DNA from: a virus
Strand: one strand, 5' to 3'
Virus genome (UHGV): UHGV-0213570
Length of the DNA stretch: 45,333 bases
Below the pieces are notes generated by a model that was not told the DNA's origin, did not search any database, and worked only from the letters and a program-made list of their open reading frames with translations. Position 1 is the first letter of the stretch; the number at the start of each line of letters is the position of its first letter. Shown piece by piece: positions 1,139 to 41,147 of the stretch. Made by a program: the position numbers and the translations under genes.

Positions 1139-1278
1139 TGGCAATCATAAAATTCACCACCGGACAAACCGCTGCATTCGATTTGTCTCAGATTAAGGTT
1201 ATGAAATGCGGAAAAGTGGTTGCGCCATTTGGTCTGGTGCAGATGCGTGAAGTTGAGATTGTTGAATATATTAAGTGA
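1138..1278 (+). CDS. hypothetical 46-aa protein
   Basis: Translationally coupled to the preceding ORF through a TAATG overlap. Confidence 0.4.
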   Translation: MAIIKFTTGQTAAFDLSQIKVMKCGKVVAPFGLVQMREVEIVEYIK

Positions 1279-1286
1279 GGTTAGTG

Positions 1287-1586
1287 ATGGAGGAATTTAA
1301 AGGTACGCGTGGCCCATGGAACTACCATAATGATGAGCCGGATTGGGTTACTGATAGCAATGACAATATAGCTGTAGCGAGAGTTACTTGCTACAACACA
1401 GATGCAAACGCTCAACATGCAAACGCAAAACTAATCGCAGCGTCACCGGAACTACTCACAGCACTCCAGCGACTACTGGAAATCTACGACGACCACTCCG
1501 GAAAAGTCTGGACAACATCAAGCAAGCGTCGCGCTCTGGATAATGCGCGTGCGGCGGTTAATAAAGCATTGGGAGAAACAAAATGA
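1287..1586 (+). CDS. A-family small protein, paralog of 34512..34829 (uncharacterised)
   Basis: ATG 1287 follows GTGAGG. Shares F-KGT+GPW and A+LIAASPELL-AL--L motifs with the 34512 gene. Its stop overlaps the start of the 1583 gene. Confidence 0.6.
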   Translation: MEEFKGTRGPWNYHNDEPDWVTDSNDNIAVARVTCYNTDANAQHANAKLIAASPELLTALQRLLEIYDDHSGKVWTTSSKRRALDNARAAVNKALGETK

Positions 1587-4751: not shown

Positions 4752-4780
4752 CAATAAAAAATCCCTCACGATGGAGGGAT
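4752..4780 (-). terminator. rho-independent terminator closing the moron cluster before the portal gene
   Basis: Minus-strand hairpin ATCCCTC-CATCGT-GAGGGAT followed by TTTTTTATT. Confidence 0.6.
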
Positions 4781-4801
4781 TATAGCATGGATGGTATATG
4801 G

Positions 4802-5593: not shown

Positions 5594-6096
5594 TTAATCT
5601 CCAGTCATATGTGACAATCTCTCGCGTCCGGATATTGCAGCAATCTCAGCATCTTCAATCGTCTTGTAGTAACCAAGTGAGTGCTGCTTCTTGTTAAAGT
5701 AAATCATTGCGCGATACAGCCAGCTGGCTTATGTAGTGATACTCCTTTAATTCCTGTGGAGTTATTCTTGTATGGTCCTCGCGTTTTTGCATGATTAATT
5801 TTGCAATCAGTCATTTTCCTGCACCCGGATGGCGTTATCGATAAATCACTCCATTTAGCGCTAAATGGGTTTTGTGAAATGGAATAAACAGCCTGCCCTT
5901 CAGGCGGGAATTCTCCAGTCATATAAAGCCACGCCAGGCGTCTTGCAGTGTATGTTTTCCCTAGTATTGTTATTAGGAAACCAAACTTGGCTCTATAACC
6001 CGCTAGCCTCCCTGATCTGCCACCACGCAACCAGATAAAATCACCAGACTCAGGATAATACCTTAGCCATTTCTTTAACTCTTGCTGAGTAATCAT
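5594..6096 (-). pseudogene. decayed, frameshifted HNH-AP2 homing-endonuclease paralog of the 15623 gene
   Basis: 5704..6096 keeps the N-terminal domain (ARRLAWLYMTGEFP versus AHRVAWFYVNGKWP) and the start of the AP2 domain (NNSTGIKGV). The DHINC...N HNH motif is replaced (YSISQ...). The AP2 domain continues in another frame at 5707..5594 (KQHSLGYYKTIEDAEIAAI versus KKYSVGLFSDINDAAIAL). Confidence 0.6.
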
Positions 6097-6272
6097 CACT
6101 CAATCCCCTCACCATCAACCCAGAGACGCAATACTTTAATAAGCTGCACTGCTTGGTGTTTATCAATGCAAATGAAATCTTTTTCTTGATATATCTTCAT
6201 GCAACCAGCGCACTCTTGATGCAAAATATCGTTAAAGTCAACACCTTCGATAACCACAGGTTTATCCATCAT
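6096..6272 (-). CDS. hypothetical 58-aa protein (MMDKPVVIEGVDFNDILHQECAGCMK...)
   Basis: RBS GAGGGTGA lies 5 nt upstream, and the stop overlaps the next start as TGATG. The upstream linker duplicates the one at 6494..6512. Confidence 0.4.
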   Translation of the reverse strand: MMDKPVVIEGVDFNDILHQECAGCMKIYQEKDFICIDKHQAVQLIKVLRLWVDGEGIE

Positions 6273-11800: not shown

Positions 11801-11961
11801 TCGAGCAAAAATTCACCAAACTGTACATCCAGCACATATTAGTGATGAGGAACTGGTCATACCTGATGCTTGGTGTGGCGGACGCTCATGTTCTGATGTG
11901 TTTTTTATTGCATATCTTTTTTATTTATATAAAATTATAGCAAGTGGAGATGGAGGGAATT

Positions 11962-29617: not shown

Positions 29618-29657
29618 CCTGAATTTGACTGATGTTGATTATATCATCTCAGTGGTG

Positions 29658-29686
29658 TTGACACCTGCGAGGTGGTGATGTAGATT
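29658..29686 (+). promoter_or_regulatory. consensus-like promoter TTGACA-N17-TAGATT, paralogous to the module at 31437..31478
   Basis: Sequence reads GTTGATTATATCAtctcagtgGTGTTGACAcctgcgaggtggtGATGTAGATTC. Confidence 0.6.
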
Positions 29687-29721: not shown

Positions 29722-29916
29722 ATGGATGTTGCTATTTTGTTGCTTTTTGCTGGATTGGTTATATATGTTTATCTTCTTCCATCATTTGTGGCATTGCAAA
29801 GAAAGCACACAAATACGACCGCAATCTGTGTATTGAATATTCTTGTCGGATGGAGCTTTATTGGATGGGTTGCAGCACTTGTTTGGGCATTAGTTAACAG
29901 TGGCGACAAGAAATGA
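29722..29916 (+). CDS. superinfection immunity protein (Imm_superinfect-type small membrane protein)
   Basis: 64-aa protein with two TM segments. The second carries the family signature NILVGWSFIGWVAALVWAL. Confidence 0.6.
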   Translation: MDVAILLLFAGLVIYVYLLPSFVALQRKHTNTTAICVLNILVGWSFIGWVAALVWALVNSGDKK

Positions 29917-30056
29917 ACGAGCAAACAAAAGCAGACCTGATTTTCTACACTGAACTTTATGTTGATGCAGGTTATGACTATGAAGAAGCAGAACGCATGG
30001 CGAAAGACTTGCTTCGTGTTATTGGTGTGATTTTTGATGAGGATAAGGTGATATGA
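29913..30056 (+). CDS. hypothetical 47-aa acidic protein
   Basis: Coupled ORF (MNEQTKADLIFYTELYVDAGYDYEEAERMAKDLLRVIG...). Confidence 0.35.
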   Translation: MNEQTKADLIFYTELYVDAGYDYEEAERMAKDLLRVIGVIFDEDKVI

Positions 30057-30454
30057 AAAATTATGAAGACATGAGTGATTTTGAGATTAACTGCCAAGTG
30101 GCGCATATGTTAGGTTTGAGTGAACACCTGTTCTTTCCATCTGGCGTTGACGACTTTGATAGCGATACTGATGAGCAAGATATGGGTCCAGTTTGGCAAA
30201 CAAGCATGATTTGGGTTAAAGGGTTTAGAGCATCAAATGGCAACCTATTTAATCCTTGCAATAATCCAGAAGATGCTGAGCCTATTATTATTGAAAACAG
30301 AATTGGCACTATTCCAGCACCAGATGATGGATTGTGGAAAGCTGCGCACAGAAAGGTTGGTAATGATGATACGCCATACCATTTTACTCAAGACAAAAAC
30401 CCACTCCGCGCCGCCATGATCGTCTTCCTGAAAATGAATGAGGATAAATTATGA
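30053..30454 (+). CDS. conserved phage protein (DUF2591-like), 133 aa
   Basis: ORF whose start overlaps the previous stop. Confidence 0.4.
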   Translation: MKNYEDMSDFEINCQVAHMLGLSEHLFFPSGVDDFDSDTDEQDMGPVWQTSMIWVKGFRASNGNLFNPCNNPEDAEPIIIENRIGTIPAPDDGLWKAAHRKVGNDDTPYHFTQDKNPLRAAMIVFLKMNEDKL

Positions 30455-30651
30455 TCCAGTGGATTAAGTGTAGTGAGCGGATGCCGGAAGATGGGGAAAT
30501 GGTTCTCACAGCATTTCATGGTTGCGTAAGAACAGCAGTTTGTAAAACAGTAGACATTTACGGTAGCAAAATATTTGTCAGCGAACTAAATCGTAGCTAT
30601 GGCATACCTGCGACGCATTGGGCTAAATCACCAGAACCACCACAAGAATAA
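30451..30651 (+). CDS. DUF551 domain protein
   Basis: Sequence reads MIQWIKCSERMPEDGEMVL...THWAKSPEPPQE, matching the DUF551 start and C-terminal PEPP signatures. Confidence 0.55.
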   Translation: MIQWIKCSERMPEDGEMVLTAFHGCVRTAVCKTVDIYGSKIFVSELNRSYGIPATHWAKSPEPPQE

Positions 30652-31398: not shown

Positions 31399-31449
31399 TT
31401 CTATCTCCGAATTGTGTTAGCTGCTAACGTGGTGATTATATCACAGGTG

Positions 31450-31478
31450 TTGACAGTGATTATTTTGTGGTGTAGATT
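31450..31478 (+). promoter_or_regulatory. consensus-like promoter TTGACA-N17-TAGATT upstream of the tRNA
   Basis: Sequence reads GGTGATTATATCAcagGTGTTGACAgtgattattttgtggTGTAGATTG. Confidence 0.55.
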
Positions 31479-31932: not shown

Positions 31933-32009
31933 GGACGCGTAGCTTAATTGGTTAAAGCAACCGACTCATAATCGGCTGATTGAAGGTTCAAATCCGTCCG
32001 TGCCCACCA
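31933..32009 (+). tRNA. tRNA with anticodon CAT (Met, fMet or Ile2-lysidine type), CCA encoded
   Basis: Cloverleaf fold: acceptor GGACGCG/CGTGCCC (one A.C mismatch, one G.U pair), U8, D-stem GCTT/AAGC, D-loop with GG, anticodon loop CTCATAA, T-loop GTTCAAATC, ACCA end. Confidence 0.75.
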
Positions 32010-32412: not shown

Positions 32413-32810
32413 AGTTTCATCTCGCGTCTTATTGTGCGGTAAACGAGTTCCTTTGTTCTGTTAGCTGCTAACTCAAGAAACTTAGGCTCCCCTTCCGGGT
32501 CCCAATAGTTACCTTTACCGCTTCTTCTCGGTTTGCCCATCAACTTTCCTGAAGCCTCGTGCACGTAGTATGCATATCTCGCTGTGTAGCCGACCTTGCC
32601 AGTTATTCTGGTGCCATTAATTTCAACCACATCAAACTGACTATTTATGAGATTTGATGTATCAATTGGCGTATAAACGGCAGCCTCAGTTCTGATTATA
32701 TAGTTTGCTGATTTAACGGCACGAACAGCCTTTAGCGATATAACGTCATCAATTATGTCCAGCGTCTTCTGCCTTGCTTCGTTAATGCCTCGAAGTTTCG
32801 CTACCATCAT
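32409..32810 (-). CDS. tail completion / head-tail joining protein, HK97 gp10 family
   Basis: HK97 gp10-like signature YTARYAYYVHE...GKGNYW. Confidence 0.55.
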   Translation of the reverse strand: MMVAKLRGINEARQKTLDIIDDVISLKAVRAVKSANYIIRTEAAVYTPIDTSNLINSQFDVVEINGTRITGKVGYTARYAYYVHEASGKLMGKPRRSGKGNYWDPEGEPKFLELAANRTKELVYRTIRREMKL

Positions 32811-34441: not shown

Positions 34442-34470
34442 TTGACGTAGATTGATGAGGCGTTTATAGT
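34442..34470 (+). promoter_or_regulatory. promoter TTGACG-N17-TATAGT with TTGACGTAGATTGATG and GTGACGTAGAAAC boxes
   Basis: Precedes RBS GAGGTGA and ATG 34512. Confidence 0.5.
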
Positions 34471-34511
34471 TAGTGACGTAGAAACAACAATAAATGTTAG
34501 AGGTGAATGAG

Positions 34512-34829
34512 ATGAAAGATGTATTCAAAGGTACAAAAGGCCCGTGGGCATTCAAGAAAGAAAAAGGCGAGCAGGAGTGGTTTGTGTTTCAGGCAGGCAC
34601 GTTAAAGAAAAGATATGGCGGTACTATCAGAACTCCAGTGGCAGAAGAAATTAATGATAAACATGACGCCCAACTTATCGCCTCGGCACCAGAATTACTC
34701 GAAGCACTCCGCCAGCTTCGCGATTACGTTGAGGATGTTTGCGCAGTATCTTCTGATGATTGTCATGAAGATCATCCATTAAATCTGGCGAACAAAGCAA
34801 TCAAGAAAGCATTAGGAAAGAAACAATGA
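34512..34829 (+). CDS. A-family small protein, paralog of 1287..1586
   Basis: Motifs FKGTKGPW and DAQLIASAPELLEALRQL, ending KAIKKALGK. Its stop overlaps the ParB-like gene start. Confidence 0.6.
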   Translation: MKDVFKGTKGPWAFKKEKGEQEWFVFQAGTLKKRYGGTIRTPVAEEINDKHDAQLIASAPELLEALRQLRDYVEDVCAVSSDDCHEDHPLNLANKAIKKALGKKQ

Positions 34830-35635
34830 AAACACTCAGCAAAATCTATTCAGACAAAGAGACGCGTAACGGCATCGCTGTAAACAAAACCTATCTTGTG
34901 CCAGTTGAGCAAATCTATCTGGAACCGGGATATAACATCCGTGAAGCGGACGAGCAACACGTTGAATATTTCGCGCAGTGCTGGGAATCAGGTCAGCCGC
35001 TGCCAGCATTAACAGTTATTCCAGACGAGAAAGGAATACGCATTCTTGATGGTCAGCATCGCTATCTCGGTGCATTGCGTGCCATTGAGCGCGGCGCGCC
35101 AATCGTTCGTATTGAGTGCAAGGATTTCACTGGCGACGAGGCTGACAAAATCGCCTTCATGGTGTCATCCAGTCAAGGGAAACAGCTCGACCCGTTTGAG
35201 CGCGCAAAGGCTTATACGCGACTGAAAGGCTTTGGTTGGACTAACGAAGAAATCGCCAGGAAGGTAGGCCGCTCAGTATCTGACGTGCAGATGCATCTGT
35301 CACTGGGTGATGTGCCAGCCGAAGTGAAAGCGCGCATCAGTGCAGGACAAATCAGCTATGCAAATGCCGTAGCAGTAACGCGTGAGCATGGCGATGATGC
35401 GGTTAAAGTTATCGACGAAGCAGTAGAAGAAGCAAAGGCGCAAGGAAAGGATAAGGTCACGGCGAAGGTGCTGAAGTCGAAAAAGATTAAGCCAGTAGAC
35501 CGTCTGATTGAGTTATTGAAGCCAGCAGACCACGTGATTCTCCCTGCTGGTCATGTGGTAGCAGAGGATGAGGAGTTTATCCAGATTCCTGTTGCTGATA
35601 TTCATGAGGTCATGGCAATTCTGGAGAAGATGTGA
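34826..35635 (+). CDS. ParB-like nuclease domain protein
   Basis: ParB/Srx N-terminal signature IRILDGQHRYLGALRA, followed by a K/E-rich C-terminal region. Confidence 0.6.
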   Translation: MKTLSKIYSDKETRNGIAVNKTYLVPVEQIYLEPGYNIREADEQHVEYFAQCWESGQPLPALTVIPDEKGIRILDGQHRYLGALRAIERGAPIVRIECKDFTGDEADKIAFMVSSSQGKQLDPFERAKAYTRLKGFGWTNEEIARKVGRSVSDVQMHLSLGDVPAEVKARISAGQISYANAVAVTREHGDDAVKVIDEAVEEAKAQGKDKVTAKVLKSKKIKPVDRLIELLKPADHVILPAGHVVAEDEEFIQIPVADIHEVMAILEKM

Positions 35636-35835
35636 TGATTACAATTGGTACGCTGGCAACAAATATAAATGTTGGTGATTTTATTCTTTTGCCAAATGGA
35701 TATACCGAAGAAGTTGCGAAAGTGCATCATCAGGAGAATATAGTTTGCCTGGAATTTGTCAGGAAAGGAGGGGCAATTAAATCAAGATGGTGGCTTATGA
35801 TTGATGAGGTTGCCAGCGTCGTGGAGAGTTGGTAA
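35632..35835 (+). CDS. hypothetical 67-aa protein
   Basis: Coupled ORF. Confidence 0.4.
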   Translation: MMITIGTLATNINVGDFILLPNGYTEEVAKVHHQENIVCLEFVRKGGAIKSRWWLMIDEVASVVESW

Positions 35836-36008
35836 TGACACCAGAACAATTCATCGAAAAACAACTTCGCGCCAAGCTGCTTGACATCGACCAGATGGCA
35901 ATTGATGCGGCGATTCAGTATTACAGGCGTCACCAGAGCGCAAAGAAGGGTGGCATTTTTGAAGAATGCCTGAAAGTTGCAAAACAACACATGATTAAGG
36001 TGAAGTGA
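35835..36008 (+). CDS. hypothetical 57-aa protein
   Basis: TAATG overlap with the upstream gene. Not in the ORF track. Confidence 0.35.
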   Translation: MTPEQFIEKQLRAKLLDIDQMAIDAAIQYYRRHQSAKKGGIFEECLKVAKQHMIKVK

Positions 36009-36547
36009 TGAAACTAAAAATAAGTAAATTATTGCTTGAATCAGCATTAATATTTCAGGCGCGAAATGATGTTCGTTACTACCTGAACGGAATCTGCTTT
36101 ATGCCTGATGGTCGCATTGCATCAACTGACGGTCATCGCGCATTTATTGGCGGCAGCCATGACAGCGAGATTGCTGAAAATATAATTGTAAAGGTCAGCA
36201 AGTGTCCGACAAAGAAATATAACCATGCGATAATCGATACAAAATCTGGAATCGTTACCTATCATTTTGGTCATATGGACACAATGGTTGGTGCTGGTAT
36301 CTGCGAAGAGATTGATGGTCGATTCCCTGATATTGATCGTGTTATACCTAAGGAAACGAAAGCAGTAGAGGAGATTGGATTTAATGCTGGCTATCTGGTT
36401 GATATTGAGAAAGTGGCGAAGCTGTTTAATCCTAAATTCCGTGGTGTCAAATTTGAACTGAATGGAAACACAAATGCCGCAGCTTGCTGTCTTAGTGCTC
36501 CATCTGGCGAGACTGCGAAGATTGTTGTTATGCCGGTGCGTCTGTAG
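36005..36547 (+). CDS. half-size DnaN (DNA polymerase III beta sliding clamp)-like protein
   Basis: Recognisable DnaN blocks: NDVRYYLNGICF (DnaN HQDVRYYLNGMLF), STDGHRAF (ATDGHRLA), DGRFPDIDRVIPK (DGRFPDYRRVLPK), KFRGVKFEL (KFRGVRLYV) and the C-terminus IVVMPVRL (YVVMPMRL). It is only 180 aa, whereas DnaN is about 366. Confidence 0.6.
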   Translation: MMKLKISKLLLESALIFQARNDVRYYLNGICFMPDGRIASTDGHRAFIGGSHDSEIAENIIVKVSKCPTKKYNHAIIDTKSGIVTYHFGHMDTMVGAGICEEIDGRFPDIDRVIPKETKAVEEIGFNAGYLVDIEKVAKLFNPKFRGVKFELNGNTNAAACCLSAPSGETAKIVVMPVRL

Positions 36548-36552
36548 CAATA

Positions 36553-36581
36553 AAAAGCCCCGTGAAGGGGCTTTTCTTTTA
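36553..36581. terminator. terminator ending the A-prime/ParB/DnaN-like cassette
   Basis: Hairpin AAAGCCCCG-TGAA-GGGGCTTT followed by TCTTTTAT. Confidence 0.7.
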
Positions 36582-37400
36582 TCACGCCAGATAAGTATCA
36601 TCCTCAAACCACGAGACATACGCATTGATATTCTGCACCGCAGTATCCAGAGAGGTGATGCGCAGCAGGTAGGTGGTATTAGGCGCCATGATGATCTGCT
36701 CACCTAGTATTGCCTGCGAATTACCCTGCCCCTGATTAGATGCGTTACCCTCGCTATATGTTGCTGCGACAGTCAGTTGTCCAATACTTGTGATCGTGGA
36801 GCCAGTCAGAAGCTGCGCCGTTGCAGTATGCGACGCTATGTCATTTGGGTTATTAATCTCCGCAGCAGTGCCGCCAGTGGCTACAGCTCCACGGTAGATT
36901 GACGCTACGACACCCTTACCGGTGTAGCCGATGATGCGTTGATTAAAAACGACCTGTTTTGAGCCGGTAATAAAAATACTGTCAAGGTTAGCTCCGCCAG
37001 CAACGTCAGTCACGCGACGCGATGCGGTGAATAACTTCCCTTGCTTGTTAGCAAACTCTGCATAGGGCTGCGCGACAACCTGACTTGATGGTACTGATGT
37101 GGCAGATCGCCATACCAGGACTTTCAGGGATGCAATGCCAGCAGGTATCTGTGACTTGATCACCTTCAGTCGCAGCGCTACGCCATAATAATTATTATTG
37201 TTAACGTCAATCCAGAAATCACCGGATGAAAACGGCGATACCATTACAGAAATAGATCCGCCTGTTAATGGCTCATAGCCACCGGAAGAATTTAGCGGCA
37301 CAATCTGCACCTGTAATGCTGACCAGTCCGCAGACATGGTTTCGCTAAGCAAAACCTCTCCATCATCCGGAGTTGTGTTTATTTCGTATCTTACAGCCAT
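36582..37400 (-). CDS. structural protein of unknown role (272 aa, Thr/Gly/Ser-rich)
   Basis: ORF downstream of the capsid genes. No recognisable motif. Confidence 0.35.
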   Translation of the reverse strand: MAVRYEINTTPDDGEVLLSETMSADWSALQVQIVPLNSSGGYEPLTGGSISVMVSPFSSGDFWIDVNNNNYYGVALRLKVIKSQIPAGIASLKVLVWRSATSVPSSQVVAQPYAEFANKQGKLFTASRRVTDVAGGANLDSIFITGSKQVVFNQRIIGYTGKGVVASIYRGAVATGGTAAEINNPNDIASHTATAQLLTGSTITSIGQLTVAATYSEGNASNQGQGNSQAILGEQIIMAPNTTYLLRITSLDTAVQNINAYVSWFEDDTYLA

Positions 37401-37440
37401 AGGAACCCCCAATAAAAAACCCGCATTATGCGGGTTCAGT

Positions 37441-41024: not shown

Positions 41025-41147
41025 TTAGTTTGTTGTCGAATTATAACACAGGGAGATATAGCACCATGAGGCGGTAGCCAGTGCAAACAATGGCGAATCA
41101 GTGAGCGCGTAAAGCGTAAGGAAGTAAGTGATAGGGATTATGTTCAT
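41025..41147 (-). CDS. tiny hydrophobic peptide (40 aa, MNIIPITYFLTLYALTDSPLFALATASWCYISLC...)
   Basis: RBS AGGAGG. Not in the ORF track. Confidence 0.3.
   Translation of the reverse strand: MNIIPITYFLTLYALTDSPLFALATASWCYISLCYNSTTN

What the first reader, a model, noticed from the sequence alone, without database searches (positions are those of the whole stretch)
34442..36581. Self-contained opposite-strand cassette: A-family protein, ParB-like nuclease, two mini-proteins and a DnaN-like protein, with its own promoter and terminator, inserted between head and tail genes
Five translationally coupled genes (stop/start overlaps ATGA, TAATG) lie on the plus strand within the minus-strand structural block. 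They are driven by a TTGACG-N17-TATAGT promoter and closed by a strong terminator, which is a moron-like architecture typical of anti-defence or superinfection modules. The ParB/Srx-type nuclease domain (DGQHRYLGALRA) combined with a clamp mimic suggests the module manipulates host DNA or replication. I know of no described system with this composition.
Basis: inference. Interest (0 to 1): 0.7.

Follow-up and report, generated by a model that had tools for sequence, protein, structure and literature searches.

The report
Conserved phage ParB and half-clamp operon
The five-gene opposite-strand cassette is real, but it is a standing part of this phage family's genome rather than an inserted anti-defence island; its most interesting genes are an almost invariant ParB/KorB-like DNA-binding protein and a cut-down copy of the bacterial sliding clamp that keeps only the pocket where clamp partners dock.

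Summary
Five stop/start-overlapping + strand ORFs (34494-36547) lie between a TTGACG-N17-TATAGT promoter and a bidirectional terminator, inside the - strand head/tail block of a Skatevirus/Cedarrivervirus-like siphophage.

The moron or anti-defence reading is not supported.
- The cassette sits at the same place in every relative examined.
- Its promoter carries a motif shared by the phage's other early-type units.
- The ParB-like gene is under stronger purifying selection than the capsid gene: 70 synonymous against 1 non-synonymous codon change versus phage Skate. It was found in about 70 of 72 matching genome records, mostly reduced seszw mutants.
- Only the slot between ParB and ORF4 varies. 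Here it holds a near-orphan 67-aa ORF.

The ParB protein is a ParB/KorB/Noc-type HTH protein, with no evidence that it is a nuclease. A KorB-operator-like palindrome lies at the major-tail promoter.

Interest is moderate.

The parts
34442..34470 (+). Cassette promoter: -35 TTGACG (34442-34447), 17-nt spacer, -10 TATAGT (34465-34470). TGACGTAGA occurs twice (34443-34451 and 34474-34482), flanking the -10.
   Evidence: 10/12 match.: -35, -10, both TGACGTAGA copies and the leader are invariant in window, Sf11, Skate, seszw and Klebsiella ZC2, while the spacer varies; the 13-mer TTGACGTAGATTG is exact at three sites in the window.
34494..34829 (+). ORF1, 111 aa (probable true start ATG 34512, giving 105 aa). 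Family phrog_1273 / PF27050 Phage_P22_Y8K6, function unknown. Paralogue at 1275..1586.
   Evidence: No PDB or PADLOC match. Diverges strongly among relatives: 95% to 33% identity, or not detected.
34826..35635 (+). ParB/KorB/Noc-type DNA-binding protein, 269 aa. N-terminal ParB/Srx-type domain with GQHR in place of GERR and SSSQG in place of ENLQR, followed by HTH_ParB/KorB and a C-terminal region.
   Evidence: Pfam HTH_ParB E 4.6e-11 and KorB 24.4 bits against a cutoff of 22.3. phrog_1033 E 1e-90. PDB Spo0J 1vz0 E 2e-13 over residues 40-202; also Noc and KorB. 97-100% aa identity in Skate-like phages at about 91% nt identity.
35632..35835 (+). ORF3, 67 aa (66 aa from ATG 35635). It fills the variable slot and is a near-orphan.
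   Evidence: No Pfam, PHROG, NCBIfam or PDB hit. No homologue in the relatives fetched. A single 90% cluster among 5.8 billion proteins, in the same slot of a related contig. The distance from ParB to ORF4 varies from 3 to 427 nt among relatives; others carry methylase, HNH or DUF551 genes within the cassette.
35835..36008 (+). ORF4, 57 aa, phrog_4439, function unknown. Always directly upstream of the clamp fragment in Skate-like phages and overlapping its start.
   Evidence: Deleted alone (seszw_140L) or together with the clamp fragment (seszw_300L.2) in viable seszw mutants.
36008..36547 (+). Mini-clamp, 179 aa (180 aa from GTG 36005). A beta-sliding-clamp fragment made of domain II plus the second half of domain III, with the clamp-binding-motif pocket retained.
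36553..36575 (.). Bidirectional intrinsic terminator AAAAGCCCC-GTGAA-GGGGCTTTT. It closes the cassette and the convergent - strand gene 36582..37412.
   Evidence: Equivalent terminators are annotated on both strands in phage Skate.
31416..31428 (.). Candidate operator for the ParB/KorB-like protein (inferred). The 13-bp palindrome GTTAGCAGCTAAC lies immediately downstream of the extended -10 TGATATAAT of the major-tail-protein promoter. A second copy is at 32460-32472.
   Evidence: Same site in Sf11, Skate and 35 IMG/VR contigs. Klebsiella-type relatives carry GTTTAGCTAAAC at the same place. KorB OB = TTTAGC(c/g)GCTAAA and KorA OA = GTTTAGCTAAAC (PMC2680271).
914..1586 (+). Sister unit: an exact copy of the TTGACGTAGATTG promoter motif (914-926), followed by + strand ORFs including the ORF1 paralogue (1275..1586).

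Best explanation
The cassette is a conserved, separately transcribed unit of Skatevirus-like virulent siphophages. It shares strand and promoter motif with the replication and other early-type genes and is embedded in the late structural block. It is not a recently acquired moron. It has three functional parts.

(1) ParB/KorB-type protein. It most likely acts as a site-specific DNA-binding regulator, possibly nucleotide-switched. Its best candidate target is the KorB-operator-like palindrome GTTAGCAGCTAAC, which sits at the transcription start of the major-tail-protein promoter 3 kb away. Binding there would hold that strong extended -10 promoter down until genome copies outnumber the protein. 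This step is inferred.

(2) A gene-exchange hot spot between ParB and ORF4. In this phage it holds the near-orphan ORF3.

(3) ORF4 plus a 'mini-clamp'. The mini-clamp is the host beta clamp reduced to domain II and half of domain III.
- Shown: it has no domain I and no dimer interface, so it cannot make the normal ring.
- Shown: its clamp-binding-motif pocket is almost intact and is the most conserved feature of the whole family.
- Inferred: it works as a soluble binder, either decoy or adaptor, of proteins that carry clamp-binding motifs. The target is unknown. It probably modulates replication or repair on phage DNA.
- Shown in a relative: it is accessory. Viable seszw mutants lack it.
For: Synteny and conservation.

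Promoter:
- Phylogenetic footprint across five relatives.
- Shared motif: GTAGATTG 10 times against 1.2 expected, and the 13-mer exact at three sites.

Selection, window against Skate:
- ParB: 70 synonymous, 1 non-synonymous codon change.
- Major capsid protein: 66 and 14.
- Mini-clamp: 37 and 31.

seszw genome-reduction records (study PMC9825161):
- Records matching at >=99% nt identity (mostly seszw isolates): capsid 72, ParB 70, mini-clamp 47.
- seszw_300L.2 lacks the ORF4 homologue and the mini-clamp but keeps ORF1 and ParB.

ParB architecture.

Operator candidate. KorB and KorA operator sequences come from PMC2680271.

Mini-clamp:
- Fold.
- 15/18 pocket residues identical to E. coli beta, against 35% identity overall.
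- 10 of the 18 family-conserved positions fall on pocket positions, p = 2e-7. The pocket residue list is from PMC11139829.
- Family size and uniform length of 170-215 aa.
- Replication-module contexts elsewhere: between cII and the O/P-like genes in lambdoid phage yong1 at 52% identity, next to the DNA polymerase in PEi21, near SSB and Dam in XM1.

The window encodes primases, a helicase, exonuclease VIII, Erf and SSB but no DNA polymerase.
Against: - No expression data exist. 'Early' is inferred from strand, promoter type and promoter motif.
- No binding data exist for ParB. The palindrome covaries with the ParB clade only at the level of two clades, which is confounded by phylogeny. Other HTH proteins of the phage could bind it.
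- The genome of a 44%-identical ParB homologue (Jilinvirus ECO1230-10) has no TTAGC-type palindrome.
- A viable seszw isolate carries a 15-aa in-frame deletion next to the ParB HTH. This argues that full DNA-binding integrity may not be strictly essential.
- It is not known whether ParB was targeted in the reduction screen.
- For the mini-clamp, peptide binding is inferred from residue conservation only. Three pocket residues differ: L177A, V344T and M364V.
- Roughly half of the mini-clamp's genomic contexts are inside structural modules.
- It occurs both with and without a phage DNA polymerase, so no single replication role is obvious.
- Oligomeric state could not be modelled.
Confidence: 0.6

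Rival explanations
1. Moron or anti-defence island. The cassette is an accessory module, acquired horizontally, whose products counter host defence or exclude other phages.
For: - It has its own promoter and terminator on the opposite strand.
- It contains a slot where a near-orphan ORF sits here, and relatives carry methylase, HNH, DUF551 or 'anti-restriction' genes within the cassette.
- The mini-clamp evolves fast and is dispensable, as accessory host-interaction genes often are.
- ORF1 alleles diverge strongly.
Against: - The cassette as a whole is present at the same place in all relatives, including Klebsiella phages with about 80% identical ParB and about 66% identical mini-clamp.
- ParB is more constrained than the capsid protein and was retained in nearly all matching genome records.
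- The promoter belongs to the phage's own promoter family.
- There are no PADLOC hits and no homology to any described anti-defence protein.
- The window's Imm_superinfect cassette is elsewhere.
Confidence: 0.17
2. The mini-clamp is a true processivity factor. It assembles into a DNA-encircling ring, for example four 1.5-domain subunits giving six domains, and tethers a polymerase.
For: - Clamp fold with high confidence.
- Adjacent to a phage DNA polymerase in PEi21. Present in Kagunavirus, which has a Pol A.
- GenBank annotations call it 'DNA polymerase III beta subunit'.
Against: - Domain I and beta residues 251-314, which include the I272/L273 dimer interface, are absent in the best alignment.
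- Scores fall far below the dnaN and Pfam cutoffs.
- This phage and lambdoid yong1 have no polymerase of their own.
- The gene is dispensable.
Confidence: 0.07
3. The ParB-like protein is a ParB/Srx-fold nuclease that degrades or nicks host DNA.
For: - DGQHR-type motif in a ParB/Srx-type N-terminal domain. There is a weak hit to the DGQHR domain model TIGR03187, E 0.007, below its cutoff.
- Some ParB/Srx-fold proteins are nucleases (established knowledge).
Against: - Colinear alignment with Spo0J, ParB and Noc across both the N-terminal domain and the HTH.
- HTH_ParB and KorB domains score above the Pfam cutoffs. This architecture belongs to DNA-binding clamps and repressors, not to the stand-alone ParB-like nucleases.
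- Extreme purifying selection over the whole length, including the HTH.
Confidence: 0.06
4. Partition module. ParB segregates a plasmid-like or pseudolysogenic phage genome through a parS site.
For: - ParB/Spo0J homology.
- A single conserved palindrome per genome resembles a parS arrangement.
Against: - No ParA-type ATPase is annotated in Sf11 or Skate.
- These phages are described as lytic (abstracts).
- No integrase or plasmid-maintenance genes are annotated in them.
Confidence: 0.03

Closest known systems
KorB of IncP-1 plasmid RK2/RP4 (ParB-family global repressor)
   Same: ParB-family N-terminal domain followed by an HTH. The Pfam KorB domain is hit above its cutoff, and there are PDB hits to 8qa8 and 1r71. 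The candidate site GTTAGC-A-GCTAAC has the same 13-bp geometry and TTAGC half-site core as OB, TTTAGC(c/g)GCTAAA, and it lies at a promoter.
   Different: Only weak sequence similarity (E 0.007). No KorA or IncC partner. One or two sites per genome rather than twelve. GQHR and SSSQG replace the canonical nucleotide-binding boxes. Binding was not tested.
Chromosomal ParB/Spo0J and Noc (CTP-dependent DNA clamps)
   Same: Best sequence matches in the PDB, colinear over the N-terminal domain and the HTH. G and the last R of the GERR box are kept.
   Different: Box II is GQHR. Box III ENLQR is replaced by SSSQG, which is conserved in this phage family. No ParA. Scores below the TIGR00180 and TIGR04285 cutoffs. 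CTP binding is unknown.
Bacterial beta sliding clamp DnaN
   Different: 180 aa instead of about 366. Domain I and half of domain III, including the dimer interface, are missing. Scores below every curated cutoff. Not essential.
Phage 'DNA Pol III beta subunit fragment' proteins (phrog_3007; e.g. Bcep781 gp15, Skate gp41, Sf11 gp36)
   Same: Same family. The window's gene is 82-91% identical to annotated copies.
   Different: Nothing, except that the family has no described function and is partly mis-named 'RusA-like Holliday junction resolvase' in PHROG and RefSeq.
Phage strategies that exploit or block the host clamp (Twort Gp168 clamp inhibitor, PDB 7evp; Mu MuC and T4 gp45 in late transcription)
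   Same: They target the same hub of replication-protein interactions.
   Different: Those are proteins that bind the clamp, or are complete clamps. Here the phage carries a copy of the clamp's docking pocket itself.

Membership tests
ParB/Spo0J/Noc (CTPase DNA clamps) | N-terminal ParB/Srx-type domain with GERRxR (box II) and ENLQR (box III) nucleotide-binding motifs | tested here: inconclusive
   The domain aligns with Spo0J and ParB. Box II is GQHR and box III is SSSQG, the latter conserved in this phage family. Pfam ParBc was not detected at E < 0.1.
ParB/Spo0J/Noc (CTPase DNA clamps) | Central HTH DNA-binding domain | tested here: met
   PF17762 HTH_ParB, E 4.6e-11, 43.2 bits against a cutoff of 22.6.
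ParB/Spo0J/Noc (CTPase DNA clamps) | Curated whole-protein score (TIGR00180 parB_part; TIGR04285 Noc) | tested here: not met
   37.1 bits against 58.45, and 38.1 bits against 315.
ParB/Spo0J/Noc (CTPase DNA clamps) | Cognate ParA-type ATPase partner | tested here: not met
   No ParA-like gene is annotated in the complete genomes of Sf11 and Skate, and none is adjacent in the window. The window's other ORFs were not individually screened for ParA domains.
ParB/Spo0J/Noc (CTPase DNA clamps) | Palindromic parS-type loading site; CTP binding and hydrolysis | not testable with these tools
   A candidate palindrome was found, but binding and nucleotide use need experiments.
KorB-type repressors | KorB DNA-binding domain | tested here: met
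   PF08535, 24.4 bits against a cutoff of 22.3, E 2.9e-5. Marked 'weak' in a related contig.
KorB-type repressors | 13-bp operator TTTAGCSGCTAAA at promoters | tested here: inconclusive
   GTTAGCAGCTAAC lies at the +1 region of the major-tail promoter, is conserved in relatives, and is replaced by GTTTAGCTAAAC in Klebsiella-type phages. The reference operator sequence is from PMC2680271. No binding data.
Beta sliding clamp DnaN | Three clamp domains per chain | tested here: not met
   180 aa, covering beta 135-250 plus 315-366 only. The family is uniformly 170-215 aa.
Beta sliding clamp DnaN | Head-to-tail dimer interface (domain I with the domain III I272/L273 region) giving a closed ring | tested here: not met
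   Both partner surfaces are absent in the best alignment. An alternative local alignment pairs AKLFNPKFRGV with AAILSNEKFRGV, so half of the interface cannot be fully excluded. Oligomer modelling was not possible.
Beta sliding clamp DnaN | Clamp-binding-motif pocket (subsites I and II) | tested here: met
   15/18 residues identical. R24, L27, T41, G43, H44, P108, Y130, M176, P177 and R179 are >=90% conserved across 96 family members. The residue list is from PMC11139829.
Beta sliding clamp DnaN | Curated scores (TIGR00663; PF02767/PF02768) | tested here: not met
   36.8 bits against 137.65. 16.7 and 13.3 bits against 27.
Morons (independently transcribed accessory inserts) | Own promoter and terminator | tested here: met
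Morons (independently transcribed accessory inserts) | Present in some and absent in other closely related genomes at the same position | tested here: not met
   The cassette is present in all relatives examined. Only the ORF3 slot, and to a degree ORF1, vary.
Known defence or anti-defence proteins | Homology to a described component | tested here: not met
   No significant PADLOC hit for any of the five proteins. No informative PDB hit for ORF1, ORF3 or ORF4. Anti-defence libraries as such were not available.

The most novel reading that the evidence does not exclude
The mini-clamp family is a phage-encoded copy of the host clamp's docking pocket. It would work as a soluble decoy that titrates one or more host proteins carrying clamp-binding motifs away from clamps on DNA. 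Possible targets include a repair or degradative enzyme such as MutL or RecBCD, Hda, or a clamp-targeting defence effector. The family exceeds 2,000 clusters at 50% identity and occurs in Skate-, Dhillon-, Guernsey-, Bcep781-, lambdoid- and Vibrio-type phages. If correct, this would be a widespread and so far undescribed class of host-takeover or counter-defence protein. In this phage it would be paired with a ParB/KorB-like protein that times late transcription.
Probability: 0.25. Interest if true: 0.75.

Novelty: new variant of a known kind. Interest (0 to 1): 0.4.

Why it matters
The cassette itself is ordinary for this phage group and is already annotated in GenBank. It should not be reported as a new anti-defence system. 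Two components deserve attention.

First, the 1.5-domain clamp fragment keeps only the partner-docking pocket. It is widespread in phages of Gram-negative bacteria and I found no functional study of it. If it binds clamp-binding motifs, it is a ready-made probe of, and interferer with, the bacterial clamp interactome. It would also be a new way for phages to manipulate replication or repair.

Second, the ParB/KorB-like protein is more constrained than the capsid protein and has a plausible operator at a late promoter. That would extend ParB-family regulation from plasmids to the timing of gene expression in a virulent phage.

Both ideas can be tested directly in available phages: BASEL Bas77-81, seszw and Skate.

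Tried and rejected
- AF2 with a shallow alignment of 21 close homologues gave an unusable model (pLDDT 42). It was replaced by a 96-sequence alignment.
- The 18-bp palindrome CCATTTAGCGCTAAATGG (5851-5868) looked like a KorB site. It lies inside an ORF, is absent from Sf11 and Skate, and has 12-bp rather than 13-bp geometry. I treat it as probably chance.
- 'ParB and mini-clamp form a conserved pair' is rejected. The Dhillonvirus neighbour gene is not ParB. Kagunavirus, Cornellvirus and Bcep781 carry the mini-clamp alone.
- 'The mini-clamp compensates for the lack of a phage DNA polymerase' is rejected as a general rule. Kagunavirus and PEi21 encode Pol A.
- I searched for TTAGC-type palindromes in a distant ParB-bearing phage (Jilinvirus ECO1230-10). 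There were none, only a loosely similar CGGATAGCCGCTATCCG inside the terminase gene.
- PADLOC, NCBIfam and PDB searches of ORF1, ORF3 and ORF4 found nothing informative.
- Literature searches found no study of phage clamp fragments or of Skatevirus ParB.
- The seszw paper's gene-by-gene tables are not held as text. I inferred dispensability from the deposited mutant genomes instead.
- I considered scanning for clamp-binding motifs in the phage proteins but did not run it, because short-motif matches would not be interpretable.
Full report
**What the window is.** The window is about 89% identical in DNA to Shigella phage Sf11 (Cedarrivervirus), Escherichia phages swi2 and HC6, and Salmonella phage Skate (Skatevirus). 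These are 45-48 kb virulent siphophages. The phage carries primases, a helicase, exonuclease VIII, an Erf-type annealing protein and SSB. It has no DNA polymerase.

**Observation.** The five + strand ORFs, their overlapping stops and starts, the promoter-like TTGACG-N17-TATAGT (34442-34470) and the hairpin terminator (36553-36575) are all present as described.
- A 10/12 consensus match is not significant by itself in this region (7 found, 5.4 expected).
- An alignment of the upstream region from five phages, including an about 80%-diverged Klebsiella phage, shows the -35, the -10, two copies of TGACGTAGA and the leader invariant while the spacer varies. That is what a functional promoter looks like.
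- The terminator serves both convergent units. Phage Skate has terminators annotated on both strands at the same spot.
Homologues are about 105 aa, so ORF1 probably starts at 34512. The family is PF27050 'Phage_P22_Y8K6', function unknown.

**Is it an insert?** No.
- The same cassette sits at the same position in Sf11 (gp32-36), Skate (gp44-41), seszw (genes 19-16), many IMG/VR contigs and Klebsiella phage ZC2.
- The exact 13-mer TTGACGTAGATTG of its promoter recurs at 914 (+) and 43372 (-).
- The octamer GTAGATTG occurs 10 times against 1.2 expected, almost always at the head of a + strand or early-type unit.
- The cassette is therefore wired into the phage's own transcription programme.

What does vary is the stretch between ParB and ORF4.
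- That distance is 3-427 nt in different relatives, and other relatives carry methylase, HNH, DUF551 or 'anti-restriction' genes within the cassette.
- In this window the slot holds ORF3. ORF3 has no family, no homologue in the fetched relatives, and only one 90%-identity cluster among 5.8 billion proteins. That cluster sits in the same slot of a related contig.
- ORF1 alleles also diverge strongly.

**The ParB-like protein.**
- It matches HTH_ParB and KorB above the Pfam cutoffs and phrog_1033 over its full length.
- It aligns colinearly with Spo0J, ParB, Noc and KorB structures across the N-terminal domain and the HTH.
Box III ENLQR is replaced by SSSQG. The latter is conserved even in a 47%-identical Jilinvirus homologue.
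- Nothing identifies it as a nuclease.
- It is remarkably constrained. Against Skate the gene is 91% identical in DNA, yet shows 70 synonymous and only 1 non-synonymous codon change. The major capsid protein shows 66 and 14.
- A published genome-reduction experiment on the Skatevirus seszw (PMC9825161) deposited many mutant genomes. Records matching at >=99% nt identity, mostly seszw isolates, number 72 for the capsid gene, 70 for ParB and 47 for the clamp fragment.
- The 36.7-kb mutant seszw_300L.2 has lost the ORF4 homologue and the clamp fragment but keeps ORF1 and ParB.
- One isolate carries an in-frame 15-aa deletion next to the HTH. The protein therefore tolerates some damage, and I could not establish whether it was targeted in the screen.

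**A candidate ParB target.**
- A scan for palindromes shared by the window, Sf11 and Skate found GTTAGCAGCTAAC.
- It lies immediately downstream of a perfect extended -10 (TGATATAAT), 18 bp upstream of the major-tail-protein start codon.
- It is identical in 35 IMG/VR contigs. A second exact copy is at 32460 in this window only.
- Klebsiella-type relatives, whose ParB is about 80% identical, have the 12-bp palindrome GTTTAGCTAAAC at the same place.
- The RK2 operators are OB = TTTAGC(c/g)GCTAAA for KorB and OA = GTTTAGCTAAAC for KorA (PMC2680271).
- The shared half-site and the 13-bp geometry, together with the KorB-domain hit, make this the best candidate site for the ParB-like protein. It remains a lead. 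The covariation is between two clades only, and a distant ParB-bearing phage lacks such a site.

**The 'DnaN-like' protein.**
- Sequence searches hit E. coli beta at E 1e-12 over beta 136-289 plus 315-366.
- With a diverse 96-sequence alignment AF2 gives pLDDT 96.4.
- The best global alignment makes it domain II (beta 135-250) plus the second half of domain III (beta 315-366). Domain I and beta 251-314, which contains the I272/L273 dimer interface, are missing.
- It therefore cannot build the canonical ring.
- Of the 18 residues that form the clamp-binding-motif pocket (list from PMC11139829), 15 are identical in the phage protein, against 35% identity overall.
- Across 96 family members, down to 26% identity, 10 of the 18 positions conserved at >=80% are pocket positions (p = 2e-7).
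- The family is large: 2,155 representatives at E < 1e-3, and the best 150 are nearly all 170-215 aa.
- It has been annotated since Bcep781 as a 'Pol III beta fragment'. PHROG and RefSeq now mislabel it 'RusA-like Holliday junction resolvase'.
- Contexts elsewhere are mixed. It is a lone opposite-strand gene inside head modules in Dhillonvirus, Kagunavirus, Cornellvirus and Bcep781. It lies between cII and the O/P-like replication genes in the lambdoid Hafnia phage yong1 at 52% identity. It is next to the DNA polymerase in PEi21 and near SSB and Dam in Vibrio XM1.
- It occurs with and without a phage polymerase.
- It evolves quickly: 37 synonymous and 31 non-synonymous codon changes against Skate.
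- It is dispensable in the laboratory.

**Mechanism.** What is shown:
- The cassette is a conserved, autonomously transcribed unit.
- ParB is a ParB/KorB-type HTH protein under extreme constraint.
- The clamp relative is a non-ring fragment with an intact docking pocket, and it is accessory.

What is inferred:
- ParB binds the palindrome at the major-tail promoter and regulates late expression.
- The mini-clamp binds proteins with clamp-binding motifs, as a decoy or an adaptor.

I put about 0.6 on this overall picture. Within it I give about 0.7 to pocket-mediated peptide binding and about 0.35 to the specific ParB-operator pairing.

The rivals carry smaller weights:
- Moron or anti-defence island, 0.17. 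This is plausible only for the variable slot and perhaps the mini-clamp.
- True ring clamp, 0.07.
- ParB as a nuclease, 0.06.
- Partition module, 0.03.

**Comparison and novelty.**
- The ParB protein works like, and partly qualifies as, a KorB/ParB family member. The HTH domains are met. The curated whole-protein scores, the canonical nucleotide boxes and a ParA partner are not.
- The mini-clamp is a homologue of DnaN but fails its defining features: three domains, ring interface and curated scores. It meets one, the pocket. It should be described as a clamp-pocket fragment, not as a sliding clamp.
- The locus is already present and annotated in public genomes, so the cassette is not new.
- The functional reading of the clamp fragment would be a new variant of a known kind.

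**Verdict.** It is not a moron and not a demonstrated anti-defence system. Interest is moderate, about 0.4. That interest comes from the uncharacterised but widespread clamp-pocket fragment and from the hyper-conserved ParB with a KorB-like site at a late promoter.

Noticed in passing
window 914, 6748, 11343(-), 18510, 21412, 31472, 34447, 36894, 43372(-), 43404; also 29658-29686 and 31450-31478: GTAGATTG occurs 10 times against 1.2 expected, mostly at the heads of + strand or early-type units. Two clean TTGACA-N17-TAGATT promoters suggest that TAGATT serves as a -10 element or as a regulator site shared by the phage's early promoters.
   Followed up: partly
window 4779-4787, 11934-11942, 29638-29646, 31435-31443, 41040-41048 (all - strand): Five extended -10 motifs TGNTATAAT (1.6 expected), all on the - strand. 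At least four lie just upstream of late operons: portal, tail chaperone/tape measure, major tail and head. They look like the late promoters. At 29638 and 31435 they overlap divergent + strand promoters.
   Followed up: partly
window 31416-31428 and 32460-32472: The 13-bp palindrome GTTAGCAGCTAAC lies at the +1 region of the major-tail promoter and is conserved in relatives. The second copy, inside the HK97 gp10-like gene, is specific to this window. Klebsiella-type relatives carry GTTTAGCTAAAC, the RK2 KorA operator sequence, at the first position.
   Followed up: partly
window 5851-5868: Perfect 18-bp palindrome CCATTTAGCGCTAAATGG, with KorB/KorA-like half-sites, inside ORF 5704..6099 (-). 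It is absent from Sf11 and Skate and is probably chance.
   Followed up: yes
window 29722-30651 (+): A second opposite-strand cassette lies between tail genes. It encodes Imm_superinfect (PF14373), NinX and DUF551 proteins behind a TTGACA-N17-TAGATT promoter. This cassette, not the one in the finding, is the superinfection-immunity-type unit.
   Followed up: partly
window 36582-37412 (-): The 276-aa ORF (phrog_5335) immediately downstream of the cassette is present in Sf11 and Klebsiella ZC2 but absent from Skate, seszw and a related Logan contig. It is a variable gene in the head block.
   Followed up: no
window 36159-36186 (+): The best sigma-70 consensus match in the region (ATGACA-16-TATAAT, 11/12) lies inside the mini-clamp coding sequence. 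It has no obvious downstream + strand gene and is likely chance.
   Followed up: no
window 31933-32009 (+): A single tRNA-Met (CAT) lies in the divergent region next to the major-tail promoter. Relatives carry different tRNAs there: Ile in Skate, Ser plus Arg in Sf11.
   Followed up: no
L049 (seszw_60L) 2001-2765; L048 (seszw_300L.2): Deposited seszw genome-reduction mutants give a natural test of dispensability. One viable isolate has a 15-aa in-frame deletion in ParB (residues 160-174). Late isolates lack the ORF4 homologue and the mini-clamp.
   Followed up: yes
L007, L008, L009, L010 (Dhillonvirus, Kagunavirus, Cornellvirus, Bcep781): In four different phage groups the mini-clamp is a lone opposite-strand gene wedged between the portal/MuF-type head-morphogenesis genes and the scaffold and capsid genes. 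This unusual synteny is unexplained.
   Followed up: partly
window 36008-36547 and relatives: PHROG phrog_3007, and hence RefSeq, names this family 'RusA-like Holliday junction resolvase'. Sequence and structure show a beta-clamp fragment, so the name is an annotation error that is being propagated.
   Followed up: yes
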